Part shown: positions 16,462 to 36,302 of the stretch, in pieces
Layout of the letters: each line of letters begins with the position of its first letter
How positions within the stretch are numbered: the first letter of the stretch is position 1
DNA from: Candidatus Altarchaeum sp.
GTDB lineage: Archaea; Altiarchaeota; Altiarchaeia; Altiarchaeales; Altiarchaeaceae
Reading direction: 5' to 3'
DNA length: 48,401 nt
Assembly (NCBI GenBank): GCA_018260615.1
Contig: JAGWDQ010000082.1
Coordinates: 1 to 48,401 of the forward strand
The notes under the pieces: generated by a model
What the model saw: only the letters and a program-made list of their open reading frames with translations
Told to the model about the DNA's origin: nothing
Database searches by the model: none
Translations under genes and position numbers: made by a program

Positions 16462-16533
16462 TTGTTTATAAAATATGAATAAAAATTTTATTGCCGTAAC
16501 TGTGGATATTGAAGACTGGTATCATATTCCTTC
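15775..16533 (+). repeat. 759-bp direct repeat, copy B
   Basis: Matches 10026-10784. Confidence 0.9.
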
Positions 16534-17386
16534 GGTTACAGGTTCGCCGTTTTCAAAATTTAAGGATGTGGACGAATTTTTCAGCAAATGGGATAAAAGA
16601 TATGATTACCTGACTGAACCGACAAAAAGGGTCTTAAACATGCTTGATGAATTAAATATAAAGGCAACCTTTTTTGTTGTTGCAGATGTTGTCGAACATT
16701 ACCCCGGATTAGTCGAAGAAATAGCAGATAGGGGACATGAGATTGGATGTCATGGATTACATCACGCATGCAAGATACATCCAAAGACAAAGAAGCCATT
16801 AATGTCAACTGAGGAATTTGAAAAAAGAACACTGAAAGCAAGGAGAATACTTGAGAAAGCATCAGGCAAGGAAGTAATCGGATACAGATCACCAAATGCG
16901 TTCATTGGCGGCTGGATGCTTGATTCGCTGAAAAAATTGGGGTTTGAGTATGACTCCTCCGTGAGCAAAAATTCCCTTTACAATAAAACGGACTCCCAAC
17001 TTACCAATGTTACTACAGTACCATATCATCCAAAAAATGACTGTCTTGACGCTGAAATAAATGATCCGAAAAATAAGGGACTACAGGAGATTCCCTGGCC
17101 ATACTTTGATTTTATGGGATTTAAATTCCCAACTGCAGGCGGTCCAATGCTCAGGTTTTTAGGTTCGGGATACATTATGCTGGGATTAAAACAAAGTTTA
17201 AAAAGGAGCAGTACAGTTTTTTATTTTCATCCGATTGATATTTCAAATGAAAAATTCCCGAATATCGGTAAAGGAAGACCATTATATTGGATCATTAAAG
17301 GAGAAACCATTGAAAACAGAATTAAATATATATTAAAAAATACCAAAGCAAATTTTGGCTGTTGTAGTGAAATGCTGCAAATTTAA
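16475..17386 (+). CDS. Polysaccharide deacetylase II (NodB/CE4 with DUF3473-like C-terminus)
   Basis: TVDIEDWYH, KATFFVV, GHEIGCHG, GYRSPN, YDSS, FYFHPIDI. Confidence 0.9.
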   Translation: MNKNFIAVTVDIEDWYHIPSVTGSPFSKFKDVDEFFSKWDKRYDYLTEPTKRVLNMLDELNIKATFFVVADVVEHYPGLVEEIADRGHEIGCHGLHHACKIHPKTKKPLMSTEEFEKRTLKARRILEKASGKEVIGYRSPNAFIGGWMLDSLKKLGFEYDSSVSKNSLYNKTDSQLTNVTTVPYHPKNDCLDAEINDPKNKGLQEIPWPYFDFMGFKFPTAGGPMLRFLGSGYIMLGLKQSLKRSSTVFYFHPIDISNEKFPNIGKGRPLYWIIKGETIENRIKYILKNTKANFGCCSEMLQI

Positions 17387-17400
17387 ATATAAAATTTGAA

Positions 17401-18543
17401 ATGATAAATGTAAATATAATCGGAACAGGGAGAACAAAATTCGGGGTATTAGACAAAAATATTCCTGAATTAGCTTATGAAGCAATGTTAAAATCATTAG
17501 AAGACAGCACTCTTTCCATAACAGAAATTGACGCAATATATGTCGCGAATTTCTGTGCAGGCCCTTTTCAAAACCAATTACATTTAAACTCACTCATTTC
17601 AGGTCTTTTGCCAAAATCAGATATCCCCATAATACGAATAGAGACAGCATGTGCGTCAGGTAGTAGTGCTTTGTATCAGGCAATAATATCTTTAAACAAA
17701 TTTGAAAATATTATGGTTTTAGGTGTCGAAAAAATGACAGATACTGATAATTTGTCTGCTTCAAAGAATATTTCTGCAGCAGGGGACAAATTACTTGATC
17801 AGGATGAAGGGCTTTTATTCCCTGCAAATTATGCTTTAATTGCACAGCAGCATATGCTTACATACGGCACAACGCTTGATGATCTTGCTTTGGTTTCTCT
17901 TAAAAATCACAATAATGGGAACTTAAATGAACTTGCTCATTTTTATCATAAAAAAGTTGATATGGAGGTGATTAAAAATTCACCTGTTGTTTGCTCGCCC
18001 CTGCGGCTTTTTGACTGCAGTCCGGTAAGTGATGGTGCTGCTGCTGTAATTATATCAAGAAATAAAAAAACAGATAGAGACATAAAAATTGTGGCATCCA
18101 CAATGGCAACGGATACTATCTCTTTATGCCAGAGAAAAAATTTAACTTCGTTTAAGGCAGCAAAAATTGCGGCAAAAGAAGCTTACAAACAGGCAGATAT
18201 AAAACCTTCGGATATTGACATTGCAGAAGTTCATGACTGCTTTACTATATCTGAGTTGATTGCTATGGAAGATATTGGATTATGCAAAGAGGGTGAAAGT
18301 AAGTACATGATAAGAGAGAATAGGACAACCCTTCAGGGAGATATACCCATAAATACAGACGGCGGTTTAAAAGCGGATGGTCATCCGATAGGTGCAAGCG
18401 GACTTGCTCAGATTATAGAAGTAGTAACACAGTTGAGGGGAGAAGCGGGAAAAAGACAGGTTCAAGATGCGGAGATTGGTTTAACGCATAATATAGGAGG
18501 TATTGGTGGCACAGCGGTGATTCATATATTAAAAAGGGAGTAA
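17401..18543 (+). CDS. Thiolase, SCP2/archaeal type (acetyl-CoA acetyltransferase)
   Basis: Catalytic motifs ETACASG, EVHDCFT, GHPIGASG, THNIGG. Confidence 0.92.
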   Translation: MINVNIIGTGRTKFGVLDKNIPELAYEAMLKSLEDSTLSITEIDAIYVANFCAGPFQNQLHLNSLISGLLPKSDIPIIRIETACASGSSALYQAIISLNKFENIMVLGVEKMTDTDNLSASKNISAAGDKLLDQDEGLLFPANYALIAQQHMLTYGTTLDDLALVSLKNHNNGNLNELAHFYHKKVDMEVIKNSPVVCSPLRLFDCSPVSDGAAAVIISRNKKTDRDIKIVASTMATDTISLCQRKNLTSFKAAKIAAKEAYKQADIKPSDIDIAEVHDCFTISELIAMEDIGLCKEGESKYMIRENRTTLQGDIPINTDGGLKADGHPIGASGLAQIIEVVTQLRGEAGKRQVQDAEIGLTHNIGGIGGTAVIHILKRE

Positions 18544-18549
18544 AATAAA

Positions 18550-20148
18550 ATGTATCAAAAAACAGCACTGATTACTGGTGGAAATGACGGAATTGGTATA
18601 GCCGTTAGCAAGACACTTTTAGAGGGAGATTATAAAGTTATTATCATAGACAAAAATGTAAATAATGCTAATGAGATGGTCAAAGAGAATAAGAATATTT
18701 ATGTATTTCGCTGCGACATAACCAATGAAAAAGAAGTTACAGAAACATTTAAAAAAATCCGGGAAATTACAGATAACATAGATGTTTTAATCAACTCCGC
18801 AGGTATTGGCGCTTTTGGTGATTTCGATGAAATTGACATTAGTGTATTCAGAAAAGTTATGGATGTTAATTTTTTTGGAACTGTCCGTGTAATAAAAGAG
18901 TGCTTGCCTTCAATGATAAAAAACGAGAAGGGGCATATTATAAATATCTCCTCAATTTCCGGAAAGGTTGCACTTCCGGGCAGTTCTCCATACTGTTGCT
19001 CAAAATGGGCATTAGAAGGTTTTTCAGAATCCTTTAGAATAGAAGTAAATCACAAACATATCGGAGTTAGTGTGATTAACCCTGGAAATGTCAAAACAGA
19101 ATTTACTAAACATTCTCTTTTGTCAAAAGCAGCAAATAACAACCACCGTACATCAAAAGGTACTCCTGTGGATTTTGTGGTCAAAAAAGTCATGCAGGTT
19201 TTAGAAAAGCCAGCGCGAAATATTTACATCCCTTCAAAAATAGGATTGGGTGCGATTATTGATGCGATTTTTCCGTCAGTAATGGATCGTTTCTACTTCC
19301 ATTGTGCAAGAAAAACGAATGTGTGTTTAGACAATGCAAAAGTTGCGGTTGTAACTGGAGCGAGTTCAGGAATTGGAAACGCGGTGGCTTCTACTTTGTG
19401 TGCCAGAGGATTAACAGTAATCATGATCGCCAGAAACAAAGAAAAACTATTTAGTGCAGCAAAAGAGATATCTGCACTTGGGGGCAATCCTGTACCTTTT
19501 CCACTTGACATACGAGATTATGAAGCAGTAAAGCAGACAATTAAAAAGATCATAATGGATTTCGGACAGATAGATATACTTGTAAATAATGCAGGTTACT
19601 CTGTTAGTGGCAAAGTTGAGGATGTCCCTATTGAAAAATACATTTCAAATATGGAAACAAACTTTTTTGGAGGCATTCAAATCATTAAAGAGGTTTTGCC
19701 ATATATGAAACAAGAAAATAATGGACACATAATTAATGTACTCTCCACGAATGCAATAAGAGGGATTCCTAATCTGAGTTCGTATGGTGCAACAAAATTT
19801 GCTTTACGAGCATTCTCTCGATGCCTGGATAGAGAACTGGCAAGAAAAAATATTAACATCAAGGTTTCTGAAGTATTTCCTGCAAGTGTAGAAACTCCTT
19901 TTTTTGTTGAAAATGCTGATACTGTCAGTGGTGCGAGTACTTCCCCTATGCTTAAATTCAATAGAAATCTTTTATCTGCTGAAGAAGTAGCAAAAGAGAT
20001 TATTGTGTTGCTTGAAACTGGAAAAACAAGGAAATTTCTCCCATTGAAGAGCTATTTTCTGTTTGTTGGAAACACTATTTCACCATCACTTGTTGATTTA
20101 TTTTTCCTGAATCGTAAAAAATTAACCCAAACTAAAAATGGTTTTTAA
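18550..20148 (+). CDS. Tandem two-domain short-chain dehydrogenase/reductase
   Basis: Two complete SDR units: TGGNDGIG/INSAG/YCCSK and TGASSGIG/VNNAG/YGATK. Confidence 0.9.
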   Translation: MYQKTALITGGNDGIGIAVSKTLLEGDYKVIIIDKNVNNANEMVKENKNIYVFRCDITNEKEVTETFKKIREITDNIDVLINSAGIGAFGDFDEIDISVFRKVMDVNFFGTVRVIKECLPSMIKNEKGHIINISSISGKVALPGSSPYCCSKWALEGFSESFRIEVNHKHIGVSVINPGNVKTEFTKHSLLSKAANNNHRTSKGTPVDFVVKKVMQVLEKPARNIYIPSKIGLGAIIDAIFPSVMDRFYFHCARKTNVCLDNAKVAVVTGASSGIGNAVASTLCARGLTVIMIARNKEKLFSAAKEISALGGNPVPFPLDIRDYEAVKQTIKKIIMDFGQIDILVNNAGYSVSGKVEDVPIEKYISNMETNFFGGIQIIKEVLPYMKQENNGHIINVLSTNAIRGIPNLSSYGATKFALRAFSRCLDRELARKNINIKVSEVFPASVETPFFVENADTVSGASTSPMLKFNRNLLSAEEVAKEIIVLLETGKTRKFLPLKSYFLFVGNTISPSLVDLFFLNRKKLTQTKNGF

Positions 20149-21247
20149 ATGTGAAAAATGTAATCTGGCGTGGTATTATCCGGTTAAAAAATGTATTTAC
20201 TGTAAAGGAGTGGTTAAAGAATTAAAAGAAGAAAAATATAGAGTTAGAGGAATAACTGAAGTTTTTGTTCCATCTAAAGATCATTCTCAAGTGCCTTATT
20301 ATGATCTCCTTTTAGAAGATGAAAATGATAATTTGCATATCAAGAAATCATTTAAGAAGTATGAAATTGGAGATGTCATACTTACAGATAATAAAAAGAA
20401 AGAGGAACACATTAAAGAGAAAATTGGAGTTATAGGTACTGGTGTCACAGGAACCGGAATTGCTCAGGTTCTTGTTTCTGCCGGATTTGAAGTAATTTTA
20501 AAAAGTAGAACTCAAGAATCATTAGATAGTGCGATTCAGAAAATAGAGAGAGAACTGTTAAGAACAATGAGTGTTTCTGAAAAAAATAAAATTATTAAAA
20601 ATATTAAGCCAACGACTAATTTAGATGATTTGATAAATGCAGATATAATAATAGAATCAGTTACCGAAAATATAAATGTAAAAAAGCAGTTATTTAAGGA
20701 ATTGGATGAAATCCTGCCTGATAAAGCAATAATTGCAACAAATACTTCTTCTCTCTCAATTGATGAATTAGCATCTGCTACTGCAAGACCGGACAGATTT
20801 ATCGGGATGCATTTCTTTAATCCGGTACCTAAAATGTATTTACTTGAAATCGTTCGTGGAGAAAAAACATCCGATACGATAATTGACAAAATAACTAAAC
20901 TTGCAAAACAAATTAATAAAACACCAATAATTACAAAAAACAGCCCGTGTTTCATAGTCAACCGAATATTGGCAGCTTACCTGAATGAGGCAATATGGGA
21001 ACTTTACGAAGGAGTTGCATCAGCAGAGGATATTGATACTGCATCAAAACTCGGACTTAATCATCCAATGGGACCTCTTGCATTGGTAGATTTAATTAGT
21101 CTTGATATAGTCCTTGCCATCCTGAAAAGTTTGCATCAAAGAACCGGAGACAAAAAGTATTTGCCCTGCCCGCTCATAGAAGAAAAAGTTAAAGAAGGTA
21201 AATTAGGCAGAAAAACAAAGGAGGGGTTTTACAAATACATTACTTAA
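20138..21247 (+). CDS. Fusion: DUF35-like Zn-ribbon/OB-fold + 3-hydroxyacyl(butyryl)-CoA dehydrogenase
   Basis: N-terminal CEKC...CIYC followed by an OB-like segment (VPYYDLLLEDE); then GVIGTGVTGTGIAQ, ESVTE, ATNTSSL, HFFNPV, FIVNRIL, GLNHPMGPL. Confidence 0.85.
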   Translation: MVFKCEKCNLAWYYPVKKCIYCKGVVKELKEEKYRVRGITEVFVPSKDHSQVPYYDLLLEDENDNLHIKKSFKKYEIGDVILTDNKKKEEHIKEKIGVIGTGVTGTGIAQVLVSAGFEVILKSRTQESLDSAIQKIERELLRTMSVSEKNKIIKNIKPTTNLDDLINADIIIESVTENINVKKQLFKELDEILPDKAIIATNTSSLSIDELASATARPDRFIGMHFFNPVPKMYLLEIVRGEKTSDTIIDKITKLAKQINKTPIITKNSPCFIVNRILAAYLNEAIWELYEGVASAEDIDTASKLGLNHPMGPLALVDLISLDIVLAILKSLHQRTGDKKYLPCPLIEEKVKEGKLGRKTKEGFYKYIT

Positions 21248-21286: not shown

Positions 21287-21805
21287 ATGTCTAAAAGAGA
21301 TAAAATAGCTTTTGAAGAAGCAGTTGCATGTTCAAATTCAAGTAACAAATTCACATATGCAATTAAATTTTTAAAGAATTGGCTTTTGGAACGCATTGCA
21401 TCCTCTTTTCCAATACCTTCATGGAGAACAAAATTACATAAAATGAGGGGTATAAAAATCGGAAAAGACGTTTACATAGGTTATGATGTGATATTTGACA
21501 GGATACATCCTGAACTGATAACAATTGAGGATTATGTTGAGATAGGCGACAGATGTATAATAAGCGCGCATTCAAGAGGTACATCACTTTTAAGGGAATT
21601 TTATCCGAGAACAACAGCGCCAGTGGTTATCAAAAAAGGAGTGTGGATCGCTCCGGGATGCATAATATTGCAGGGTGTGAGTATTGGGGAGTGTGCTGTT
21701 ATAGGTACTGGGGCAGTTGTTACTAAAGATGTTCCTTCGTGGAGTGTTGCAGTGGGAGTACCTGCAAACGTTATCAAAACCTTAAAAAATAATTTACGAT
21801 TATAA
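21287..21805 (+). CDS. Hexapeptide-repeat (left-handed beta-helix) acyltransferase
   Basis: IGKDVYIG; VVIKKGVWIAPGCIILQGVSIGECAVIGTGAVVTKDVP...GVPA. Confidence 0.9.
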   Translation: MSKRDKIAFEEAVACSNSSNKFTYAIKFLKNWLLERIASSFPIPSWRTKLHKMRGIKIGKDVYIGYDVIFDRIHPELITIEDYVEIGDRCIISAHSRGTSLLREFYPRTTAPVVIKKGVWIAPGCIILQGVSIGECAVIGTGAVVTKDVPSWSVAVGVPANVIKTLKNNLRL

Positions 21806-21811
21806 AAAAAG

Positions 21812-22966
21812 ATGAGCAATCAAAAAGTATGTACAAGATGTGTCATGGACACATCGGATCCTGATATTCAATTTGATGAAGATGGAGTATGCAATCATTG
21901 TAGAAAATATGAAAAAATAATGCATTGTAGAGTTTATTCTGATGAAGAAAAGCAGCAAAAACTTAAACATCTTGCAAATAAAATCAAAGAAGAAGGAAAA
22001 AATAAGGAATATGATTGTATTATAGGAGTTAGTGGAGGGGTTGATAGCACCATGGTCGCGTACACAGTTAAAAAAAAGTTGGGTTTGAGGCCGTTAGCAA
22101 TTCATTTAGATAATGGGTGGGACTCAGAGTTGTCAATAAAGAATATAGAAAAAATATGCAAGGTGCTTGATATTGATTTATTTACTCATGTGCTTGATTG
22201 GGAAGAATTTAAGAATATACAATTATCCTTCTTAAAATCATCTTTTATAAATGCTGAGATGCCAACAGATCATGCTATAATGGCGGTTCTTTTCCAGGTT
22301 GCTGATGAAAAAAGAATCCCTTACATCATTAACGGGTCTAATTTCACGACAGAAGGCATATTGCCTAATAGTTGGGTTTATGATGTTAGAGACTGGAAAT
22401 TTATTGAAGGGATCCATAGAAAGTTTGGTAAACTGAAATTAAAAACATTTCCTCATTATGGTTTAATAGATATGTTTTATTATCTTTTTATAAAAAGCAC
22501 AAAATTCGTTACAATTTTAGATTACATTGACTATAACAAAAAAGATGCAATGAAACTTATAGAAAAAGAACTAGGGTGGAAATATTATAGCGGGAAACAT
22601 TATGAATCAATATTTACTCGTTTTTACCAGGGATATATTCTTCCAAAGAAATTTAAAATAGATAAAAGAATAGCCCATTTATCTACGCTAATTTGTTCGG
22701 GTCAGATAACAAGAGAGGAAGCATTGGAAGAGTTAAAAAAAGATCCATATCCTTCCGAAGAAATGATGAAAGAGGACAAAGAGTATGTTATAAAAAAATT
22801 AGGGCTTACTGAAGAAGAGTTCGAAAAAATAATGTCGCTGCCAATTAAGACATTTGAAAGTTACCCTAATAATAGTTTTTTATTCAATAAATTAAAACTG
22901 CCACTTAGGATAGCATATAAATTTGGCTTGGTTCCTCCCATTGTATACTTTAGATATTGTGTTTGA
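21812..22966 (+). CDS. N-acetyl sugar amidotransferase (WbpG/WbuX/AglX-like)
   Basis: CTRCVMD...CNHC; PP-loop YDCIIGVSGGVDS; HLDNGW; GKHYES. Confidence 0.9.
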   Translation: MSNQKVCTRCVMDTSDPDIQFDEDGVCNHCRKYEKIMHCRVYSDEEKQQKLKHLANKIKEEGKNKEYDCIIGVSGGVDSTMVAYTVKKKLGLRPLAIHLDNGWDSELSIKNIEKICKVLDIDLFTHVLDWEEFKNIQLSFLKSSFINAEMPTDHAIMAVLFQVADEKRIPYIINGSNFTTEGILPNSWVYDVRDWKFIEGIHRKFGKLKLKTFPHYGLIDMFYYLFIKSTKFVTILDYIDYNKKDAMKLIEKELGWKYYSGKHYESIFTRFYQGYILPKKFKIDKRIAHLSTLICSGQITREEALEELKKDPYPSEEMMKEDKEYVIKKLGLTEEEFEKIMSLPIKTFESYPNNSFLFNKLKLPLRIAYKFGLVPPIVYFRYCV

Positions 22967-23013
22967 GTTAATACATATAAACCCATAAAACAAACAAATA
23001 AACAAAAACGATT

Positions 23014-23631
23014 ATGCTCACTATTATTGATTACGGAATGGGAAATGTAGGTTCAATTAAGAACATGCTAAAAAAAGCAGGATATAATTCAGTTATTACC
23101 TCGCAGATCTCTGAAATAAAAAATGCGACAAAGCTCATTTTACCGGGAGTTGGGTCATTTGATAATGGTATTAAACAGTTATTTAATTTAAATTTAACAG
23201 ATGTCTTAAATGAAAAGATATTAAATGAAAAAACCCCGGTCATGGGAATATGTCTTGGAATGCAGTTAATGACAAAAAACAGCGAGGAAGGAAAATTGTC
23301 AGGATTGGGATGGCTAAATGCAAAAACAATAAGATTTAATTTTAATCAGGATTATTCATTAAAAATTCCGCACATGGGATGGAATTCGGTGAAAATTGAA
23401 AAGAAAAGTAAAATCTTTCAGGACATGTATGACGGGGAAAACAGATTTTATTTTGTTCATTCGTATCATGTTCTTTGCGATAATCAGGAAGATATATTAA
23501 CAAGTACATTTTATGGTTATAACTTTACATCCGGTTTTGAAAGAGATAATATTATCGGAGTACAGTTTCACCCGGAAAAAAGTCATAAATTCGGTATGCA
23601 ACTTTTAAAAAGTTTCGCAAAGAATTTTTAA
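23014..23631 (+). CDS. HisH-like glutamine amidotransferase (glycan-modification paralogue, WbuY/AglY-like)
   Basis: IDYGMGNVGS, LPGVGSFD, GICLGMQ, FYFVHSY, QFHPEKS; located in a glycan operon. Confidence 0.9.
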   Translation: MLTIIDYGMGNVGSIKNMLKKAGYNSVITSQISEIKNATKLILPGVGSFDNGIKQLFNLNLTDVLNEKILNEKTPVMGICLGMQLMTKNSEEGKLSGLGWLNAKTIRFNFNQDYSLKIPHMGWNSVKIEKKSKIFQDMYDGENRFYFVHSYHVLCDNQEDILTSTFYGYNFTSGFERDNIIGVQFHPEKSHKFGMQLLKSFAKNF

Positions 23632-23644
23632 ATAATATATCAGA

Positions 23645-24415
23645 ATGTTAAATACAAGAGTAATACCGGTTTTACTACTAAGAAACAGAGGATTGGTAAA
23701 GACAGTTGAATTCAAAGAAGGAAAATATATAGGAGATCCGATAAACGCAGTTAAAATATTTAATGAAAAAGAGGTGGATGAGTTGATATTCCTTGATATT
23801 ACAGCAAGTAAAGAACAGAGAGAGCCCAATTTTGATTTAATTTATGATATTGCAACAGAGTGTTTCATGCCTTTTGGATACGGTGGTGGAATCAAAACAA
23901 TACAACACATAAAAAAACTCTTTTCATCGGGTGCAGAAAAAGCAGTTATAAACAGCTGTGCAATAGAAAATCCATCTTTCATCAAGGAGGCATCGGATTT
24001 TTTTGGCTCACAAAGTATTGTTGTTTCCATAGATGTTAAAAAGAGTTTAACGGGAAAATATAAAGTTTATGATAGCAGTAAAGATAAATTAACAGATTTA
24101 GACCCAGTGGATTTTTGCATTAAAATGGAATCATTGGGGTGCGGAGAAATTTTTTTAAATTCCGTCGAAAGAGATGGAATTATGAAAGGATATGATATAG
24201 AATTAATAGAAAAAGTAGCAAACGCAGTAAATATTCCAGTAATTGCCTGTGGGGGTGCAGGTAAACTTGAGGATTTCAGAGATGCTGTAAAACAAGGAAA
24301 TGCTTCAGCGGTTGCAGCAGGCAGTTTGTTTGTTTTTTACGGAAAACACAAAGCCGTCCTGATTAATTATCCTTCACAGGAAGAATTAGAAAAAATATTA
24401 GATCAAAAAAGATAA
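23645..24415 (+). CDS. HisF-like TIM barrel (WbuZ/AglZ-like)
   Basis: RVIPVLL, GDPINAVKIFNEKEVDELIFLDI, GYGGGI, ERDGIMKGYD, GGAG. Confidence 0.9.
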   Translation: MLNTRVIPVLLLRNRGLVKTVEFKEGKYIGDPINAVKIFNEKEVDELIFLDITASKEQREPNFDLIYDIATECFMPFGYGGGIKTIQHIKKLFSSGAEKAVINSCAIENPSFIKEASDFFGSQSIVVSIDVKKSLTGKYKVYDSSKDKLTDLDPVDFCIKMESLGCGEIFLNSVERDGIMKGYDIELIEKVANAVNIPVIACGGAGKLEDFRDAVKQGNASAVAAGSLFVFYGKHKAVLINYPSQEELEKILDQKR

Positions 24416-25500: not shown

Positions 25501-25821
25501 ATGGAACACTTTATGAAAGATGATGCTCTGGGATATTTTGTACAGCGAATTCGTGAGCAGTTAGATAATAATCTTAAACGGATTATTTTATTTGGTTCGA
25601 AGGCTCGCGGAGATGATGTGGTGGGTTCTGACTATGACTGTCTGGTAATTGTAGACGCGGTTTCACGAAAAATCAATGATATTGTAGATAAAGTGGCAGG
25701 TGAAACCCTCTATCAATATAACACAGTATTTTCTGTAGTTCTCATCTCGGAAGAAAAATATAATCGTCAAATTTACAATCCACTCTTGATGAATATTAAC
25801 AAGGAGGGGACTATATTATGA
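25501..25821 (+). CDS. Minimal nucleotidyltransferase (MNT) antitoxin
   Basis: LFGSKARGD...SDYDCLVIV; 4-bp overlap with the HEPN gene. Confidence 0.85.
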   Translation: MEHFMKDDALGYFVQRIREQLDNNLKRIILFGSKARGDDVVGSDYDCLVIVDAVSRKINDIVDKVAGETLYQYNTVFSVVLISEEKYNRQIYNPLLMNINKEGTIL

Positions 25822-26264
25822 ACAAAAATAAAATTCTCATGGAACAATTGGAAACAATGATACGAAAGGCTGAACGTTCACTTGCTTCTGCCAAACGGCA
25901 GATTGAAGAAGGCGATTATGACTTTGCATCGTCTCGCGTTTACTATGCTGCTTTTTACGCGATGGAAGCCATTCTCCTGACTGAAAACATGGTGTTCTCC
26001 AAACATGGTGCCGTTATTGGTGCCTTTAACCAGCATTTCATCAAACCAGGTATTTTTCCAAAAGAATTCAGCAAGCTAATCACTCGTATTTTTCGTGAAA
26101 GGCACATCGGAGATTATGAATTTGATTTAAGTATCGGAGAGGATGAAGCAAAAGAAGATCTTGAGCATGCTGAAAGAATAGTGAAAAATATCACGAGTTA
26201 CTTAACCAGAGAAGGATTTATAGAGTACAAATTAGGGGCGGAAGAAAAAGAGGAAAACTTATAA
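25818..26264 (+). CDS. HEPN domain protein (MNT-HEPN pair)
   Basis: SRVYYAAFYA, KHGAVIGAF, RHIGDY. Confidence 0.85.
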   Translation: MNKNKILMEQLETMIRKAERSLASAKRQIEEGDYDFASSRVYYAAFYAMEAILLTENMVFSKHGAVIGAFNQHFIKPGIFPKEFSKLITRIFRERHIGDYEFDLSIGEDEAKEDLEHAERIVKNITSYLTREGFIEYKLGAEEKEENL

Positions 26265-26272
26265 AACAAAAA

Positions 26273-26911
26273 ATGATATCCTTAAATAGAGTAATGGTTT
26301 TAAGCCCGCACACCGATGATGGGGAAATCGGGGCCGGAGGTACAATAGCACGACTAATTGAAGAAGGAAAGGATGTTTATTATGTTGCATTTTCAAGTTG
26401 TGAGGAATCATTGCACAAGGGATTAAAAGATGACACTTTGAAAAAGGAATGTATTGAAGCAACTGGTCTTTTGGGAATTCCAAAGAAAAATGTCATTTTA
26501 CTTGATTATAAAGTCAGATATTTTTATCAGCACAGGCAGGAAATTCTGGATGAAATAATAAGACATAATAAAGAAATTTCACCCGATGTTGTTTTTGTTC
26601 CATCATTTTATGATACACATCAGGATCATCAGGTTATCTATAATGAATCATTGAGGGCATTTAAAAAAAGTGCTTCCATATTGGGATATGAGCATCCATG
26701 GAATAATCTATCCTTTACAACACACATATATTTTAAATTGGAGGAAAGACATATACAAAAAAAGATAAATGCTTTAAAATGTTATAAATCGCAGGACTTT
26801 CGGTCATATTTTGATGAAAAATATATAAAGGCGTCTGCTTATGCCAAGGGAGTTGAAGTAAATTTTCCTTATACCGAGACATACGAATTAATAAGATTAC
26901 TCATAAAATAA
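26273..26911 (+). CDS. PIG-L/LmbE family deacetylase
   Basis: LSPHTDDGEIGAGGTI, DTHQDHQ, YKSQ. Confidence 0.9.
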   Translation: MISLNRVMVLSPHTDDGEIGAGGTIARLIEEGKDVYYVAFSSCEESLHKGLKDDTLKKECIEATGLLGIPKKNVILLDYKVRYFYQHRQEILDEIIRHNKEISPDVVFVPSFYDTHQDHQVIYNESLRAFKKSASILGYEHPWNNLSFTTHIYFKLEERHIQKKINALKCYKSQDFRSYFDEKYIKASAYAKGVEVNFPYTETYELIRLLIK

Positions 26912-29450: not shown

Positions 29451-30512
29451 TTGAAAATGGATGTTGATATAAAAAAATTAAAACAAAATAAAGAAATGTG
29501 GGATATATTTACAAGAAAAGAGGAATATAACTCAAAACATTTAGACCATTTTGAGATCCATAATTTGAAGAAAGGTAAATATATAACAAAACCAATCGTT
29601 TCAAAATTTTTAATTGAAAATAATTTAAAAATAAATTATCTGGAAAACAAAAAGTTTGCCGTATGTTTAACACATGATGTTGATGACATTTACCCTCCAT
29701 TACACCACACACTACTCTCATCACTTTATTGCATTAAAAATCTAAATTTTAAACAATTAAAAAAACAACTTTTCTGGAAGAATAGCGGAAAAGAATATAG
29801 TCCTTATAGAAATTTCAAAGAAATAATAGATTTAGAAGAAAAATACAGCGCAAAATCATCATTTTATTTTATGGCAACCAACAAGGATATAAAAAGATTT
29901 AGATATCATATTGAAGATTTAGAAAACGATTTGGGCTTTATTTGGGATAATGACTGCGAGATTGGGTTACATGGAGGGTATTATGCATATAATAATTTAG
30001 GGGAAATAAAAAAAGAAAAAGAGAGAATAGAAAAAGTTTTAGGTAAATCAGTTATTGGTTATAGGAATCATTACTTGATGTTCAAAATTCCAGATACATG
30101 GGAATTATTAGAAAAATGCGGATTCAAATACGATACGACAATGGGGTATAATTATGGCGTTGGTTTTAGAAATGGGATGTGTCATCCCTTTAAACCATTT
30201 AATTTGAATAGCAATAAGGAGATTGACATTTTAGAGATTCCCATGATTATTATGGACAGTGCTTTATTTAATGTTTCAATTTCAATTGAACAAACATGGG
30301 AAACTGTAAAGAACATCATAAACACGGTAGAAAAATGTAACGGTGTTTTGACTTTATCCTGGCACAGTGAAGTATTTAACTGGCCTTTTAGAGAAAACTG
30401 GAAGATACTATACGAGAAAATTTTAAAGTATTGTTATGAAAAGAATGCTTGGATGACAAGCGGAGAAGAAATCTATAGGTGGTGGAATAAAAATGAAGAA
30501 TCAAAAAACTAA
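29451..30512 (+). CDS. Polysaccharide deacetylase family protein
   Basis: LTHDVDD, EIGLHG, GYRNHYL, YDTTMG, GFRNG, LSWH. Confidence 0.85.
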   Translation: MKMDVDIKKLKQNKEMWDIFTRKEEYNSKHLDHFEIHNLKKGKYITKPIVSKFLIENNLKINYLENKKFAVCLTHDVDDIYPPLHHTLLSSLYCIKNLNFKQLKKQLFWKNSGKEYSPYRNFKEIIDLEEKYSAKSSFYFMATNKDIKRFRYHIEDLENDLGFIWDNDCEIGLHGGYYAYNNLGEIKKEKERIEKVLGKSVIGYRNHYLMFKIPDTWELLEKCGFKYDTTMGYNYGVGFRNGMCHPFKPFNLNSNKEIDILEIPMIIMDSALFNVSISIEQTWETVKNIINTVEKCNGVLTLSWHSEVFNWPFRENWKILYEKILKYCYEKNAWMTSGEEIYRWWNKNEESKN

Positions 30513-33186: not shown

Positions 33187-34402
33187 AAATTTAAATATGG
33201 CTAACAAGAATCTTTTAGTATTGGCAAACAGCTTTTATCATTCAAACTGCAAATCAATAGGAATATACAAAACACAAGTGGATGCAATTGCAGAAAATTT
33301 TAATAGAATTTATGTTATTGCTCCGACACCACATCTTCCGGAATTTTTTGGAAGATTTAAATGGATTCCACAAAGTTGGAAAAAGGGAATAAATCCTATT
33401 GATTATTCTTATGGGAACATATCTGTTTATTTTCCTAACTTTTTTATGCTGCCCATAAATTTTCTACGAGAAAAATATGCCGAAGGCGCATATAAGTCCG
33501 CATTAAAACTTATTTCAAAGGAAAATATAACTTTTGATATAATTCATGCACATTTTGTCTATTATGCAGGATATGTTGGTGCGAAATTGAAAGAGAAATA
33601 CAAAAAACCATTAATTATTACCGGGCACGGAGATGATGTTTATAGTTTGCCATTTAAATATAAACATTTTGAAAAGATGGCAAAATACGCTCTTGGTAAT
33701 GCAGATTATGTAACAACAGTAAGTAAGAGTAATTATGAAAAATTGATTGAGCTTGGGGTGGATAAGGAAAAGGTCACTGTGATTCCTAATAGTTATGATA
33801 AAAATATATTTAAGCCAATCCCGGAAGATTGTAAAGAGGGGTTAAATATTCCAAAAAACAAGAAGATTATTCTTTCTGTTGGTATGTTAGAAGAAATAAA
33901 GGGGCACGAATATTTGATAAAGGCGATGAGAAAAGTTATAGATAAGAGGACAGATGTTTTATCTATTATGGTTGGTAGCGGGCAATTGAAATCAAAATTA
34001 CAGAGATTAATAACTAACTTGAATCTTGATGATTATGTAAAATTAGTTGGTGCAAAACCACATAACGAAATTCCATTGTGGATGAATGCATGCGATTTAT
34101 TTGTTTTGCCGAGTTTAAATGAAGGAAATCCAACAGTGATGTTTGAATGCCTGGGCTGTGGAAAACCTTTTGTAGGAACAACTGTCGGTGGAATTCCTGA
34201 AGTAATAATAAATGACAAATTAGGTTATTTATGTGAGCCAAAAAGTCCGGATGAACTTGCAGAAAAAATTTTACTTGCGATGGAGCGAAAATGGGATAAA
34301 GAATATATTCTGGAATATGCTAAAAAATTCTCATCCGATGAGATAGCAAAGGAAACATTTAAAGTTTATGAAAAAGTAATTGCTAATGGAAAAGAAAAAT
34401 AA
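33173..34402 (+). CDS. GT4 glycosyltransferase
   Basis: IIHAHF, ITGHGDD, VIPNSYD, KGHEYLI, FVLPSLNEGNP, GGIPE. Confidence 0.9.
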   Translation: MNKYKNLNMANKNLLVLANSFYHSNCKSIGIYKTQVDAIAENFNRIYVIAPTPHLPEFFGRFKWIPQSWKKGINPIDYSYGNISVYFPNFFMLPINFLREKYAEGAYKSALKLISKENITFDIIHAHFVYYAGYVGAKLKEKYKKPLIITGHGDDVYSLPFKYKHFEKMAKYALGNADYVTTVSKSNYEKLIELGVDKEKVTVIPNSYDKNIFKPIPEDCKEGLNIPKNKKIILSVGMLEEIKGHEYLIKAMRKVIDKRTDVLSIMVGSGQLKSKLQRLITNLNLDDYVKLVGAKPHNEIPLWMNACDLFVLPSLNEGNPTVMFECLGCGKPFVGTTVGGIPEVIINDKLGYLCEPKSPDELAEKILLAMERKWDKEYILEYAKKFSSDEIAKETFKVYEKVIANGKEK

Positions 34403-36302
34403 TGAGTTGAGGGAAAAATGTATTCGTGAAAAAATAAAAGAAAATTTAGATTTGATTGCTGCATTAGGAGGAATTATTCTCGGAATTTTTATTATTTATA
34501 TGTCTCGTGTATATGGAATACACCAGGAGGATATCGGGGGAACGATTTTAATATCTTCATTATTATATGTCCTGTTGAGGAAAAGATTGCTTAAAGCAAA
34601 CGAAATTTTCAATTTCAAGCTAACAAAGAATTTTATATATTTCAATAACATTATCTTTTTCTTTGCTTTAAGTTTAAGCGTATTGCTGCTTTACAATACC
34701 CTTTATTCAAGACCTTTACTTTACTTTATACTCGTTACAGTAGCAATTTGCTCAATTGCTTTTGAAATTCTTTATTCTAACAAAAAACATTCAATAGCAA
34801 TTTTAATTAAAATTCTGCTAATTGGAATAAATTTATATGGAGGAATTTATTATGAATTTCCAGGAAATGTAGTTGGAATAGATACAAGAACGCATAATTT
34901 TATAACCGAGCAAACTATTAAAGAAGGATATATTATTCCGGGACAACCATATTTTAATTTTCCCATATTTCATACACTTGCGGCACAAATGAGTATTTTA
35001 ACTTCTTTAAATGTTTATGATTCAATCTTTTTATCAACAACCTTTTTGTTGGCTTTTTCCATTATCTTTATCTTTTTGCTTGGAAAAGAATTAATTAATA
35101 CAAACGCAGGGCTTTTAGCATCACTATTGTTTGTTTTTGGTGATTGGGTTATTGGCTATTCTCCTGCAATTCCAATGACGCTTGGATTTGTATTTTTTAC
35201 AATAATTTTATATTTGTTTATTAAATGTGTTCCAAAGTCGTTGTACAGAAGAATTATTATCTTTTTTTTATTTGTTGTTTTAATATTGACGCATACTGTT
35301 GCTGCATTTGCATTGCTTGTCACAGCAATATCTCTTTTTGTATTAAAAAATATAAATAAATACATAAATAATCTCTCTGCTAATAAATTTACAATTTTCC
35401 TTGGGACAACAATAATATTTGGAGTGATGCTTTTAGGTTACTGGATGTATGCTTTTGAGTGCCCAACATGTTCGTCATTTCTTGATTATTCCCTAAATGC
35501 TTTGATTACTGGCTTAACAAAGTACAGTGTATTTTCTGGAAATGAAGAACTTGCTACTGTTCAGGAAAAAATATCAACTTATGTTGCTGTCAATTATTTA
35601 GAATATATTCTTGATCATTTAGGATATTTGATGTTTTTGGGAATTGGAATAATTGGAGCATATATTTGGATTAAAGGCAAAGATGAATTCAAATTTCCGA
35701 TATCTGTTACTATGATTATCATTTTTGCGATCATCTACGGATTTTCTCTTGCTGGGGATACATCAATTATGCCAACAAGGTGGTTTATATTTGCATACCT
35801 AATTCTTGCCCTTGTTTTTGCTTATGGACTTTTTAAGTTAATAAATCTAATTAATAAAAGATTTGCAACAATTTCATTTTTAATTATAATTTTTTTAATG
35901 TCTTTTTTCATGATAACCTCAACAGTTTCAAATAGTGACAATCCTTTATATCACAAAGAGCATACAAATTTATGCGCATACAAGCAATCACAATTGCAGG
36001 GAATGTCAACATTCTATAAATTTTTTAATGGAACTTATGGAGAAATAAATCCCGGTCCATTAGGAACAATAAATCCTGATATATTATCTCAAGATTATAA
36101 TTTTAGCAAGGATAGAGGTAAGATGTATACAATATGGAAAGATGCATTTATTTATCCAAGATTATGGACAACATATTATGAAAGAGCAGGATCAGGTGCT
36201 CAATCATATATTCTTGATGGTGAATTTAAAATTAGAGTTGAATTAAACAGCAACGAAATTTATGATAATGGGGAGGTTTGGGGATATGTGATTAAAGATT
36301 AA
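34380..36302 (+). CDS. Polytopic membrane protein (GT-C/polymerase-like; function uncertain)
   Basis: 640 aa with about 13 hydrophobic segments, a loop GIDTRTH, and a soluble C-terminal tail ending IYDNGEV. Confidence 0.6.
   Translation: MLMEKKNNELREKCIREKIKENLDLIAALGGIILGIFIIYMSRVYGIHQEDIGGTILISSLLYVLLRKRLLKANEIFNFKLTKNFIYFNNIIFFFALSLSVLLLYNTLYSRPLLYFILVTVAICSIAFEILYSNKKHSIAILIKILLIGINLYGGIYYEFPGNVVGIDTRTHNFITEQTIKEGYIIPGQPYFNFPIFHTLAAQMSILTSLNVYDSIFLSTTFLLAFSIIFIFLLGKELINTNAGLLASLLFVFGDWVIGYSPAIPMTLGFVFFTIILYLFIKCVPKSLYRRIIIFFLFVVLILTHTVAAFALLVTAISLFVLKNINKYINNLSANKFTIFLGTTIIFGVMLLGYWMYAFECPTCSSFLDYSLNALITGLTKYSVFSGNEELATVQEKISTYVAVNYLEYILDHLGYLMFLGIGIIGAYIWIKGKDEFKFPISVTMIIIFAIIYGFSLAGDTSIMPTRWFIFAYLILALVFAYGLFKLINLINKRFATISFLIIIFLMSFFMITSTVSNSDNPLYHKEHTNLCAYKQSQLQGMSTFYKFFNGTYGEINPGPLGTINPDILSQDYNFSKDRGKMYTIWKDAFIYPRLWTTYYERAGSGAQSYILDGEFKIRVELNSNEIYDNGEVWGYVIKD

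What the first reader, a model, noticed from the sequence alone, without database searches (positions are those of the whole stretch)
20138..21247. DUF35 scaffold fused to 3-hydroxyacyl-CoA dehydrogenase: a re-wired thiolase metabolon
Seen: an ~85-aa CxxC...CxxC + OB-like domain fused N-terminally to a complete HBD. Established: in archaea DUF35 bridges thiolase to HMG-CoA synthase so that the endergonic condensation is pulled forward by channelling acetoacetyl-CoA. Inference: here DUF35 tethers a reductase instead, pulling the same reaction towards 3-hydroxybutyryl-CoA, a natural swap of the downstream partner. No HMG-CoA synthase is present in the window.
Basis: partly seen in the sequence, partly recalled or inferred. 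Interest (0 to 1): 0.7.

Follow-up and report, generated by a model that had tools for sequence, protein, structure and literature searches.

The report
Thiolase-docking domain fused to hydroxybutyryl-CoA dehydrogenase
An archaeon's surface-sugar gene cluster encodes a reductase carrying a small built-in docking domain for a thiolase encoded two genes upstream, so the pair most likely makes its own 3-hydroxybutyryl-CoA to decorate a cell-surface sugar; this is a new variant of a known enzyme-scaffolding principle.

Summary
ORF 20138-21247 (369 aa) has an ~85-residue four-cysteine zinc ribbon plus OB domain, a ~10-residue disordered linker and a complete 3-hydroxyacyl-CoA dehydrogenase.

- **DUF35 likeness.** No Pfam DUF35 model detects the N-terminal domain. 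Its predicted fold matches only DUF35 proteins over its full length. A profile-profile alignment to canonical DUF35 is in register, but it is a stripped-down, divergent form.
- **Thiolase link.** An archaeal-type thiolase lies directly upstream of the fusion in every related locus with upstream DNA. A complex model scores 0.90 against 0.23 for the best control. Like complexes are solved, so this shows likeness, not proven binding.
- **Context.** All loci examined are glycan clusters with a deacetylase and an acyltransferase. The genome keeps a separate housekeeping thiolase, DUF35 and HMG-CoA synthase elsewhere.
- **Other fusions.** The same domain is also fused to an SDR ketoreductase and to DUF362.

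Most likely the pair is a tethered thiolase-reductase unit supplying (S)-3-hydroxybutyryl-CoA for sugar acylation.

A non-covalent thiolase/DUF35/reductase complex was reported in Sulfolobus in 2024, so this is a new variant. This scan found the same cassette earlier in several other genomes.

The parts
16475..17386 (+). CE4-type polysaccharide deacetylase (Polysacc_deac_1 + DUF3473), directly upstream of the thiolase
   Evidence: Pfam E 3.1e-20 and 3.1e-10. A CE4, PIG-L or GDSL (de)acylase sits beside the thiolase/fusion pair in most related loci.
17401..18543 (+). Archaeal/SCP2-type acetoacetyl-CoA thiolase, dedicated paralogue
   Evidence: Thiolase_N + Thiolase_C_1. NCBIfam PRK06064 scores 453 bits, above its cut-off. 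6esq_A thiolase E 4.6e-82. The ETACASG Cys and the HDCF motif are kept. It is 46% identical to the housekeeping thiolase on contig C81.
18550..20148 (+). Fusion of two classical SDR domains (532 aa); lineage-specific insertion between thiolase and fusion gene; role unknown
   Evidence: adh_short twice, E 1e-108. The halves are 30% identical and both carry YxxxK. It is absent from the otherwise collinear cluster of an 80%-identical relative, L047.
20138..20392 (+). Minimal DUF35-like docking domain (residues 1-85): 4-Cys zinc ribbon + OB barrel
   Evidence: Invariant Cys. AF2 pLDDT 86. Foldseek's top hits are all DUF35 members. VIA Z 5.3-6.2 over 83-90 residues. hhalign E 1.4e-4. Complex model 0.90 against 0.23.
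20393..20419 (+). Lys/Glu-rich flexible linker (residues 86-94)
   Evidence: pLDDT below 50 at 85-91/92 in both models. Length and sequence vary among homologues.
20420..21247 (+). 3-hydroxyacyl-/3-hydroxybutyryl-CoA dehydrogenase domain (residues 95-369)
   Evidence: 3HCDH_N and 3HCDH matched end to end. PRK05808 E 1.1e-103. Clostridial Hbd structures E about 6e-75. S204/H225/E237/N275 are invariant. The beta2 end is K-S-R where clostridial Hbd has R-D-I.
21287..21805 (+). Left-handed beta-helix (hexapeptide) acyltransferase, the candidate user of the acyl-CoA
   Evidence: Hexapep E 1.5e-13. A hexapeptide, LpxD-like or GNAT/FemAB-like transferase is annotated or detected beside the pair in the window, L014, L016, L017, L018, L047/L048, the P0011 locus and L051. 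Loci L021-L029 were not checked for it.
21812..24415 (+). WbuX-type N-acetyl-sugar amidotransferase with HisH- and HisF-like partners (context: amino-sugar tailoring)
   Evidence: TIGR03573 scores 300.6 bits, above its cut-off. GATase and His_biosynth.
26273..26911 (+). PIG-L family de-N-acetylase (context)
   Evidence: Pfam E 1.1e-19.

Best explanation
The gene encodes a two-part protein. A minimal, divergent DUF35-type zinc-ribbon/OB domain is joined by a short flexible linker to an (S)-specific 3-hydroxybutyryl-CoA dehydrogenase.

Proposed mechanism:
1. The small domain docks onto the loop/cover region of the dedicated archaeal-type thiolase at 17401-18543.
2. This holds the reductase next to the thiolase, so acetoacetyl-CoA from the unfavourable condensation of two acetyl-CoA is reduced at once, probably with NADPH.
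3. The product, 3-hydroxybutyryl-CoA, is a private acyl donor. The adjacent hexapeptide acyltransferase would put it on a sugar of the cell-surface glycan, plausibly on an amine freed by the neighbouring deacetylase.

Shown by the sequence and tools: domain architecture, fold, conservation, gene linkage and glycan context. Inferred: physical docking (model only), channelling, NADPH use, product stereochemistry, and the sugar as acceptor.
For: **Fold.**
- The Foldseek hits at ranks 1-18 for the domain model are all DUF35 proteins. They include PhlB 5m3k_B, ChsH2-DUF35 6ok1_D, BbsA 7pxp_A, Trf 6htj_B, the M. thermolithotrophicus DUF35 6esq_F and 3irb, with E 3e-3 to 4e-2 and TMq 0.48-0.59.
- Apart from one partial match (1oxu_A, 72 residues), only DUF35 chains align over both sub-domains, at Z 5.3-6.2 over 83-90 residues. 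Plain OB proteins cover only residues 30-86.

**Sequence.** hhalign against 24 canonical DUF35 proteins, including this genome's own, gives E 1.4e-4. The two CxxC pairs, the PY motif and the final IG motif are in register.

**Linkage.** In all 10 HBD-type loci with upstream DNA, a full-length thiolase ORF ends at or overlaps the fusion's start; in an eleventh, L017, the thiolase ORF is cut by the contig end. The same holds in L047 and the P0011 locus.

**Docking model.**
- ipSAE is 0.90 (three runs, 0.90-0.91) against 0.23 for the best control. In the tool's calibration this mark was reached by 58 of 80 solved complexes and 2 of 110 mismatched pairs.
- The runs agree in at least 98% of contacts and the partner's pLDDT is at least 86.
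- Predicted interface residues of the domain are more conserved than the rest (0.77 against 0.59, Mann-Whitney p 0.0014).
- Thiolases linked to this domain share interface motifs ([DE]Q.[EQ]G[LM].FP and SP.V.SPLR) that the genome's housekeeping thiolase lacks.

**Modularity.** The same domain is fused to an unrelated FabG-like SDR ketoreductase, again right after a thiolase in a glycan cluster. It is also fused to DUF362 near thiolases.

**Glycan context.**
- The + strand run from 16.4 to 43.4 kb is a sugar-tailoring and glycosyltransferase cluster.
- Related loci carry DegT aminotransferases, deacetylases, acyltransferases, flippases and Wzy.
- N-(R)- and N-(S)-3-hydroxybutanoyl amino sugars are known in bacterial surface glycans (PMC3726653, PMC9676051).

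**Separate housekeeping set.** The genome has its own thiolase (C81), canonical DUF35 (C80) and HMG-CoA synthase (C68).

**Precedent.** The S. acidocaldarius thiolase/DUF35 pair binds an acetoacetyl-CoA reductase.
Against: - Neither Pfam DUF35 model matches the domain, even at E up to 10 on the isolated domain or up to 1 in the genome search.
- A profile of the family reached no canonical DUF35 among 1.84 billion representatives.
- The hhalign probability is only 53%. Z about 6 is in a range where common small folds also score (note).
- The domain lacks the N-terminal helix segment and the C-terminal extension. These are the most conserved parts of canonical DUF35.
- The complex pass may reflect likeness to solved thiolase/DUF35 complexes, not binding by this copy.
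- In this window the thiolase and the fusion gene are separated by a double SDR of unknown role. It could itself act on acetoacetyl-CoA.
- The acyltransferase's donor and acceptor cannot be read from sequence; its nearest structures are O-acetyltransferases.
- No glycan structure is known for this organism.
Confidence: 0.7

Rival explanations
1. The tethered thiolase-reductase pair serves central carbon or energy metabolism (a butyrate-type, polyhydroxybutyrate or carbon-fixation route or fatty-acid synthesis) and merely happens to lie in a glycan region.
For: Thiolase plus Hbd is the first half of the clostridial butyrate and reverse beta-oxidation routes (established knowledge). A thiolase/DUF35/reductase complex serves fatty-acid synthesis in S. 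acidocaldarius.
Against: None of the 29 window ORFs scanned matched a crotonase, MaoC dehydratase, enoyl-CoA reductase, PHA synthase or CoA-transferase. The cassette is embedded in glycan clusters in every locus examined, across unrelated phyla. Only 2 of 61 genomes of the organism's own phylum carry it, which does not fit a core pathway.
Confidence: 0.08
2. The N-terminal domain is a generic zinc-ribbon/OB module, for nucleic-acid binding, regulation or self-assembly, that does not dock on the thiolase. The fold likeness to DUF35 is convergent or irrelevant.
For: Pfam DUF35 models fail. Small OB proteins score as high as DUF35 members over the OB part. One DUF35-fold protein, Trf, is described as a translation factor (PMC6996347).
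Against: Linkage to a thiolase holds in every related locus checked, whatever the fused partner. The most conserved surface coincides with the predicted thiolase interface. Linked thiolases have their own interface signature. Only DUF35 proteins match the whole two-part architecture.
Confidence: 0.07
3. The module makes a different or further-processed acyl group. The thiolase may condense another acyl-CoA, or the inserted double SDR may convert the product (the opposite stereoisomer, an oxidised or reduced derivative), so the transferred group is not simply (S)-3-hydroxybutyryl.
For: The 532-aa double SDR sits between thiolase and fusion in this lineage only. Its halves differ at the cofactor-specificity position. 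The thiolase's chain-length preference cannot be read from sequence.
Against: The ancestral and most widespread arrangement is thiolase directly followed by the fusion, with no SDR. The dehydrogenase is closest to C4-specific clostridial Hbd.
Confidence: 0.12
4. The pair works in the degradative direction, oxidising 3-hydroxybutyryl-CoA and cleaving acetoacetyl-CoA, for example to recycle acyl groups removed by the deacetylases.
For: Both reactions are reversible, and thiolysis is the favoured direction thermodynamically (established knowledge). Deacylases are adjacent.
Against: Deacetylases release free acids, not CoA esters, and none of the window ORFs scanned matched a CoA ligase or transferase. 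The Ser-Arg in place of the NAD-specifying Asp points to NADPH and a biosynthetic direction. An acyltransferase is annotated or detected beside the pair in most loci where neighbours were read.
Confidence: 0.03

Closest known systems
[quoted passage not shown] 2018, cited through PMC12960953)
   Same: Same class of thiolase (6esq_A E 4.6e-82). A zinc-ribbon/OB protein of the same fold (6esq_F among the top fold hits). Same logic of pulling the endergonic condensation by handing acetoacetyl-CoA to the next enzyme.
   Different: The downstream enzyme is a reductase, not HMG-CoA synthase. The scaffold is covalently fused to it. It lacks the N-terminal and C-terminal conserved segments of canonical DUF35 and is not seen by the Pfam models. 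The pathway context is glycan tailoring, not mevalonate. The genome keeps a separate canonical set.
Sulfolobus acidocaldarius fatty-acid synthase assembly: ketothiolase/DUF35 (Saci_1121/1120) + SDR acetoacetyl-CoA reductase (Saci_1104) + MaoC dehydratase (bioRxiv 10.1101/2024.07.05.601840)
   Same: A thiolase/DUF35 unit physically recruits an acetoacetyl-CoA reductase, shown by SEC and co-elution.
   Different: There the DUF35 is a free-standing canonical protein. The reductase is an (R)-specific NADPH SDR bound non-covalently. A dehydratase and an enoyl reductase complete a chain-elongation cycle. Here the reductase is of the 3HCDH family, is fused to the docking domain, and none of the window ORFs scanned matched a dehydratase or enoyl reductase.
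ChsH2(DUF35)-Ltp2 steroid aldolase (PDB 6ok1) and P. fluorescens HMGS-DUF35 fusion (PMC12960953)
   Same: Precedents for a DUF35 domain covalently fused to a pathway enzyme and docking it on a thiolase-fold partner. 6ok1_D is among the best fold matches (Z 6.0 over 87 residues).
   Different: In ChsH2 the DUF35 domain lies in the C-terminal part of the protein (6ok1_D aligns at chain residues 208-304); per the literature it follows a MaoC hydratase and the partner is an aldolase. In the Pseudomonas protein the fused HMGS unit lacks its catalytic residues and is proposed to be inactive. Here the domain is N-terminal, minimal, and fused to an intact dehydrogenase.
Clostridial Thl/Hbd pair and bacterial 3-hydroxybutanoyl-sugar pathways (for example Acinetobacter psaG/H, lgaH/I, qhbC; E. 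coli O103 / Salmonella O55 3-hydroxybutanoyltransferase)
   Same: Same chemistry: acetyl-CoA to acetoacetyl-CoA to 3-hydroxybutyryl-CoA, with the dehydrogenase closest to clostridial Hbd. Known surface glycans carry N-(R)- or N-(S)-3-hydroxybutanoyl groups.
   Different: Clostridial Thl and Hbd are separate, untethered enzymes with a type II thiolase. In the two Acinetobacter papers consulted, the gene modules listed for 3-hydroxybutanoyl sugars name no thiolase or reductase. A built-in thiolase-reductase supply unit turned up in none of the literature searches.

Membership tests
DUF35 (Pfam PF12172 zf-ChsH2 + PF01796 OB_ChsH2_C) | Significant match to the family's profile HMMs | tested here: not met
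   Neither model hits in the whole protein, the isolated domain at E up to 10, or the six-frame genome search at E up to 1, which finds only the canonical copy on C80. The family profile reached no canonical DUF35 in 1.84e9 representatives.
DUF35 (Pfam PF12172 zf-ChsH2 + PF01796 OB_ChsH2_C) | Rubredoxin-like four-Cys zinc ribbon followed directly by an OB barrel | tested here: met
   C5, C8, C19 and C22 are invariant. AF2 model pLDDT 86. The Foldseek hits at ranks 1-18 are all DUF35 proteins. Whole-domain alignments reach Z 5.3-6.2 over 83-90 residues.
DUF35 (Pfam PF12172 zf-ChsH2 + PF01796 OB_ChsH2_C) | Detectable sequence homology to canonical members by profile-profile comparison | tested here: inconclusive
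   hhalign probability 53%, E 1.4e-4, 77 columns in register, with low alignment diversity (Neff 2.6). Profile against PDB gives only a weak zinc-ribbon match to 6htj, E 0.25.
DUF35 (Pfam PF12172 zf-ChsH2 + PF01796 OB_ChsH2_C) | Conserved N-terminal segment (W-R...R-Y-N-L-x-G) and C-terminal extension (F-R...G-x-x-G-x-I-x-Y-G-x-K-F) of the archaeal scaffold proteins | tested here: not met
   The domain aligns to residues 21-108 of the 132-aa canonical protein. Both terminal segments, invariant in alignment A3, are absent.
DUF35 (Pfam PF12172 zf-ChsH2 + PF01796 OB_ChsH2_C) | Encoded next to, and binding, a thiolase-fold enzyme of the SCP2/archaeal class | tested here: met
   Gene linkage is met in all related loci with upstream DNA. 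In this window the thiolase lies one gene further upstream. Binding itself is not measurable here. The complex model supports it (0.90 against best control 0.23; mark reached by 58 of 80 solved complexes and 2 of 110 mismatched pairs; at least 98% contact agreement; partner pLDDT at least 86), with the caveat that like complexes are solved.
3-hydroxyacyl-CoA dehydrogenase family (PF02737 + PF00725; Hbd/HADH type) | Both domains matched end to end above the curated cut-offs | tested here: met
   200.4 bits (cut-off 22) and 114.7 bits (cut-off 22.1). Clostridial Hbd structures E about 6e-75.
3-hydroxyacyl-CoA dehydrogenase family (PF02737 + PF00725; Hbd/HADH type) | Catalytic Ser / His-Glu dyad / Asn and the GxGxxG dinucleotide motif | tested here: met
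   G100, G102, G105, S204/S205, H225, E237 and N275 are invariant in 25 homologues. Assigning them to catalytic roles rests on established knowledge of HADH.
3-hydroxyacyl-CoA dehydrogenase family (PF02737 + PF00725; Hbd/HADH type) | Acidic residue at the end of beta2 that specifies NAD(H) | tested here: not met
   K-S-R stands where clostridial Hbd has R-D-I. Ser occurs in 21 of 25 and Arg in 22 of 25 family members. From this, a preference for NADPH is inferred, not shown.
Archaeal thiolase/HMG-CoA synthase/DUF35 mevalonate-entry complex | HMG-CoA synthase as the third partner, usually co-encoded | tested here: not met
   None of the scanned window ORFs is an HMG-CoA synthase. The genome's archaeal-type HMG-CoA synthase match is on contig C68.
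Archaeal fatty-acid synthase assembly (S. acidocaldarius type) | MaoC-type dehydratase and enoyl-CoA reductase completing an elongation cycle | tested here: not met
   No MaoC, crotonase or MDR-type enoyl reductase domain was found among the window ORFs scanned, or in the related loci whose gene tables were read.

The most novel reading that the evidence does not exclude
The ~85-residue domain defines an unannotated family of portable thiolase-docking tags, about 130 clusters at 50% identity. Evolution has fused it repeatedly to unrelated enzymes: a 3HCDH-type reductase, a FabG-type SDR, DUF362 and at least one unknown domain. Each fusion is paired with its own co-adapted thiolase. This would give small-genome archaea and CPR bacteria that lack fatty-acid metabolism a private, channelled source of C4 acyl-CoA for surface-glycan decoration. 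It would also mark DUF362 as a new enzyme acting on a thiolase product.
Probability: 0.45. Interest if true: 0.65.

Novelty: new variant of a known kind. Interest (0 to 1): 0.5.

Why it matters
- **A natural channelling design.** Thiolase condensation is thermodynamically uphill. How cells pull it forward is a practical issue for engineered butanol, PHB and reverse beta-oxidation pathways. A natural covalent tether of the reductase to the thiolase would be a ready-made design to copy and test.
- **A wider reach for DUF35.** The finding extends the DUF35 scaffolding principle to glycan decoration. It also shows that a minimal form, invisible to current domain models, was missed by genome mining based on PF01796 (as in PMC12960953).
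- **A testable prediction.** It predicts 3-hydroxybutanoyl-decorated surface glycans in poorly known lineages (Altiarchaeota-like archaea, DPANN, CPR) and gives a gene marker for them.

Tried and rejected
- **Direct sequence searches with the N-terminal domain found no DUF35.** Pfam gave only a sub-threshold DUF1287 hit. phmmer against PDB sequences gave only a chance CtkA hit, E 2.3. The profile against PDB gave weak zinc-ribbon hits only, DnaJ E 0.23 and 6htj E 0.25.
- **The profile against 1.84e9 representatives did not bridge to canonical DUF35.** It also gave about six spurious hits to giant repeat proteins sharing a TYYFNVLVKDEAGN-like hairpin.
- **The Voegeli 2018 paper is not held.** I therefore could not compare the predicted interface with the published thiolase-DUF35 contacts.
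- **Literature searches found nothing on this fusion.** I searched for DUF35 with 3-hydroxybutyryl-CoA dehydrogenase, and for thiolase genes in 3-hydroxybutyryl O-antigen clusters.
- **The hexapeptide transferase cannot be typed from sequence.** N- or O-acylation and the acyl donor remain open; its nearest structures are galactoside and maltose O-acetyltransferases and DapD-type N-acetyltransferases.
- **The double SDR matches only generic SDR models.** I considered it as the true acetoacetyl-CoA reductase of the module. I rejected it as a core part because an 80%-identical relative has the same cluster without it.
- **A core-metabolism reading was considered and set aside.** The grounds are context and the 2-of-61 distribution in the phylum.
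- **Not done:** a thiolase phylogeny with outgroups.


Full report
**Observation.**

ORF 20138-21247 on the + strand encodes 369 residues. The first ~85 residues carry C5-x2-C8 and C19-x2-C22 followed by a beta-rich stretch. Residues 95-268 and 272-367 match the two domains of 3-hydroxyacyl-CoA dehydrogenase end to end (E 2.9e-59 and 2.9e-33). The closest solved relatives are clostridial 3-hydroxybutyryl-CoA dehydrogenases (E about 6e-75).

Full-length homologues of 52-98% identity exist in metagenomes. In 25 of them the four cysteines and T40, S46, P53, Y54, L58, D61 and K70 are invariant. The N-terminal piece is therefore a conserved domain, and the start codon is right.

One detail differs from the finding's wording. 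In this window the thiolase (17401-18543) is separated from the fusion gene by a 532-residue protein made of two SDR domains (18550-20148).

**Is the N-terminal domain DUF35-like?**

Direct sequence searches say no:
- Pfam's two DUF35 models miss it in the whole protein and in the isolated domain.
- A six-frame search of the genome with these models finds only a canonical 132-residue DUF35 on contig C80.
- A profile of the family, run against 1.84 billion representative proteins, finds only 132 clusters and none of the very numerous canonical DUF35 proteins.

Structure says yes:
- An AlphaFold2 model (pLDDT 86) gives a zinc ribbon followed by a small barrel.
- The Foldseek hits at ranks 1-18 in the PDB are all DUF35 proteins: PhlB, the ChsH2 DUF35 domain, BbsA, Trf, the Methanothermococcus scaffold protein, 3irb and MucC (E 3e-3 to 4e-2, TMq 0.48-0.59).
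- In the second-look alignment, apart from one partial match (1oxu_A, 72 residues), only these align over both sub-domains (Z 5.3-6.2, 83-90 residues). Ribosomal and other small OB proteins cover the barrel alone. Z values near 6 are not decisive on their own, as the tool's note says.
- A profile-profile comparison with 24 canonical DUF35 proteins gives E 1.4e-4 (probability 53%). Both CxxC pairs, the PY motif and the closing IG motif are in register.

The alignment also shows what is missing. The domain corresponds to residues 21-108 of the canonical protein. It lacks the N-terminal and C-terminal segments that are invariant in the canonical family. I read it as a stripped-down, divergent DUF35-type domain. 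It works like one, but by the family's own models it is not a recognised member.

**Link to the thiolase.**

The thiolase at 17401-18543 is of the archaeal/SCP2 class that is known to work with DUF35. It scores 453 bits on NCBIfam PRK06064, E 4.6e-82 to 6esq_A and E 1e-48 to BbsB. It keeps the nucleophilic Cys and the HDCF motif.

I fetched 29 genome loci through the domain's most conserved peptide and further loci through exact protein look-ups:
- In all ten HBD-type loci with upstream DNA, a full-length thiolase ORF ends at or overlaps the fusion's start; in an eleventh, L017, the thiolase ORF is cut by the contig end.
- The same holds for L047 and the P0011 locus.
- L047 is from an 80%-identical relative. 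It has the same gene order as the window but no double SDR, so that gene is a lineage-specific insertion into an ancestral thiolase-fusion pair.

A complex prediction of the thiolase with residues 1-92, both given as alignments, scored 0.90 in three runs against 0.23 for the best of three controls. In the tool's calibration this mark was reached by 58 of 80 solved complexes and 2 of 110 mismatched pairs. The runs agree in at least 98% of contacts, and the partner's pLDDT is at least 86. Thiolase/DUF35 complexes are solved, so the pass may reflect likeness only.

Two independent observations fit the model:
- The predicted interface residues of the domain (13-14, 37-50, 54, 56, 58, 65-70, 77) are more conserved than the rest (0.77 against 0.59, p 0.0014).
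- All thiolases linked to this domain share motifs in the predicted contact region, [DE]Q.[EQ]G[LM].FP and SP.V.SPLR. The genome's housekeeping thiolase has different residues there.

**Modularity.**

The 132 clusters carrying the domain break down as follows:

| Fused partner | Clusters |
|---|---|
| Dehydrogenase (HBD type) | 31 |
| DUF362 | 41 |
| Short: fragments or stand-alone | 39 |
| No partner matched (six of them giant repeat proteins; one of ten scanned is SDR-fused) | 21 |

One of the 'other' clusters is fused to a FabG-like SDR ketoreductase. That SDR fusion again follows a thiolase directly, in a glycan cluster with a hexapeptide transferase. Two unrelated ketoreductase families carrying the same tag in the same context is the strongest comparative argument that the tag's job is to bring a reductase to the thiolase.

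**Context and purpose.**

The + strand genes of the window from 16.4 to 43.4 kb form a glycan tailoring and assembly cluster:
- a CE4 deacetylase;
- a hexapeptide acyltransferase;
- a WbuX amidotransferase with HisH/HisF-like partners;
- DUF354, a PIG-L deacetylase and WbqC;
- an asparagine-synthase-like enzyme, an ATP-grasp protein and a methyltransferase;
- several GT1/GT4 and GT2 glycosyltransferases;
- a UDP-GlcNAc 2-epimerase, a 4,6-dehydratase-type epimerase and a nucleotidyltransferase.

The related loci, from Altiarchaeota, Micrarchaeota, Cloacimonadota, Nitrospirota, a Desulfocapsa and unclassified MAGs, are also glycan clusters. Next to the pair there is nearly always a deacylase (CE4, PIG-L or GDSL). 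In most loci where neighbours were read there is also an acyltransferase (hexapeptide, LpxD-like or GNAT/FemAB-like), often with a DegT aminotransferase.

None of the window ORFs scanned, nor any gene table read for the related loci, shows a crotonase, MaoC dehydratase, enoyl reductase or PHA synthase.

The genome has a separate housekeeping thiolase (46% identical), canonical DUF35 and HMG-CoA synthase on three other contigs. Only 2 of 61 species genomes of its phylum carry the domain. The cassette is therefore an accessory, mobile part of glycan clusters.

N-(R)- and N-(S)-3-hydroxybutanoyl amino sugars are well known in bacterial capsules and O-antigens (PMC3726653, PMC9676051).

I therefore infer that the pair supplies 3-hydroxybutyryl-CoA to the adjacent acyltransferase. 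The acceptor is plausibly an amine freed by the deacetylase. The dehydrogenase family predicts the (S)-isomer. The K-S-R at the end of beta2 stands where clostridial Hbd has R-D-I and is conserved in 21-22 of 25 homologues. It predicts NADPH, which fits biosynthesis. Both are inferences.

**Comparison with what is known.**

- **Archaeal thiolase/HMG-CoA synthase/DUF35 complex.** It shares the thiolase class, the fold of the small protein and the logic.
- **Sulfolobus acidocaldarius.** Its thiolase/DUF35 pair was shown in 2024 to bind an SDR acetoacetyl-CoA reductase and a dehydratase. A DUF35-mediated thiolase-reductase assembly is therefore already established, though non-covalent and for fatty-acid synthesis.
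- **Covalent fusion of DUF35 to a pathway enzyme.** This is known in ChsH2 (6ok1) and in a Pseudomonas HMGS-DUF35 protein.
- **What is new here.** The new features are the minimal, unannotated form of the domain, its N-terminal fusion to an intact 3HCDH-type reductase (and elsewhere to an SDR or DUF362), and its recruitment to glycan clusters.

I found no paper describing this fusion. Mining by PF01796, as in PMC12960953, would miss it. I rate it a new variant of a known kind.

**Organism.**

Primase and gyrase genes, the archaeal-type HMG-CoA synthase match and the small phylum (61 species genomes) point to an archaeon. Close homologues come from a groundwater metagenome (CEG12445 and others). 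A 59%-identical copy of the domain lies in a MAG titled Candidatus Altiarchaeota. An Altiarchaeota affiliation is likely but was not tested.

**Earlier notes of this scan.**

A first-reader note on the same stretch (e1-5531913) and follow-up reports on at least five other genomes reached the same reading. I reached it from my own tests before reading them. They are not independent evidence.

**Verdict.**

The purpose is refined to private 3-hydroxybutyryl-CoA supply for glycan acylation. Binding, channelling, cofactor, stereochemistry and acceptor all need experiments.

Noticed in passing
window 18550-20148 (+): A 532-aa protein made of two classical SDR domains (30% identical halves, both with YxxxK; the first has Asp and the second Arg at the end of beta2). 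It is inserted between the thiolase and the fusion gene. It is absent from the otherwise collinear cluster of an 80%-identical relative (L047). Its role is unknown.
   Followed up: partly
L019-L045 (e.g. L020:5983-7449, L039:5974-7047, L038:1473-2945): The same docking domain is fused to DUF362 (same Pfam clan as LarA's DUF2088; function unknown). This occurs in Patescibacteria/Saccharibacteria, Nanoarchaeia, Woesearchaeota and Methanosarcinales MAGs. The short form (~350 aa) has a thiolase a few kb upstream in about two thirds of loci and an SDR gene nearby in most. The long form (~490 aa) is flanked by two thiolase genes.
   Followed up: partly
L051:5001-5996 and L052:3690-4685 (protein P0324): The docking domain is fused to a FabG-like SDR ketoreductase, directly after a thiolase in a glycan cluster with a hexapeptide transferase. 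This parallels the HBD fusion and probably gives the opposite stereoisomer.
   Followed up: partly
window 25501-26264 (+): A minimal nucleotidyltransferase/HEPN pair (106 and 148 aa, overlapping genes) sits in the middle of the glycan operon. The relative L047 has no such pair between DUF354 and PIG-L.
   Followed up: no
window 21812-24415 (+): A WbuX-type N-acetyl-sugar amidotransferase with HisH- and HisF-like genes, the set associated with acetamidino sugars. From memory, it resembles the Methanococcus maripaludis flagellin N-glycan genes; this was not checked.
   Followed up: no
G000 contigs C81:8335-9513, C80:6054-6452, C68:36315-37340: The housekeeping thiolase, canonical DUF35 and HMG-CoA synthase of this genome lie on three different contigs, next to unrelated genes. 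They are not in one operon.
   Followed up: partly
proteins P0249, P0342, P0361, P0363, P0372, P0376: Giant repeat proteins (1250-4976 aa) match the domain profile through a repeated TYYFN(V/I)LV(K/Q)D..GN hairpin motif, with up to 27 stretches. I judged this a spurious resemblance to the VPYYDLLLEDENGN strand-turn-strand.
   Followed up: partly
window 29451-30512 and 34380-36302 (+): Two sizeable ORFs (353 and 640 aa) inside the glycan cluster have no Pfam match at E up to 1e-4.
   Followed up: no
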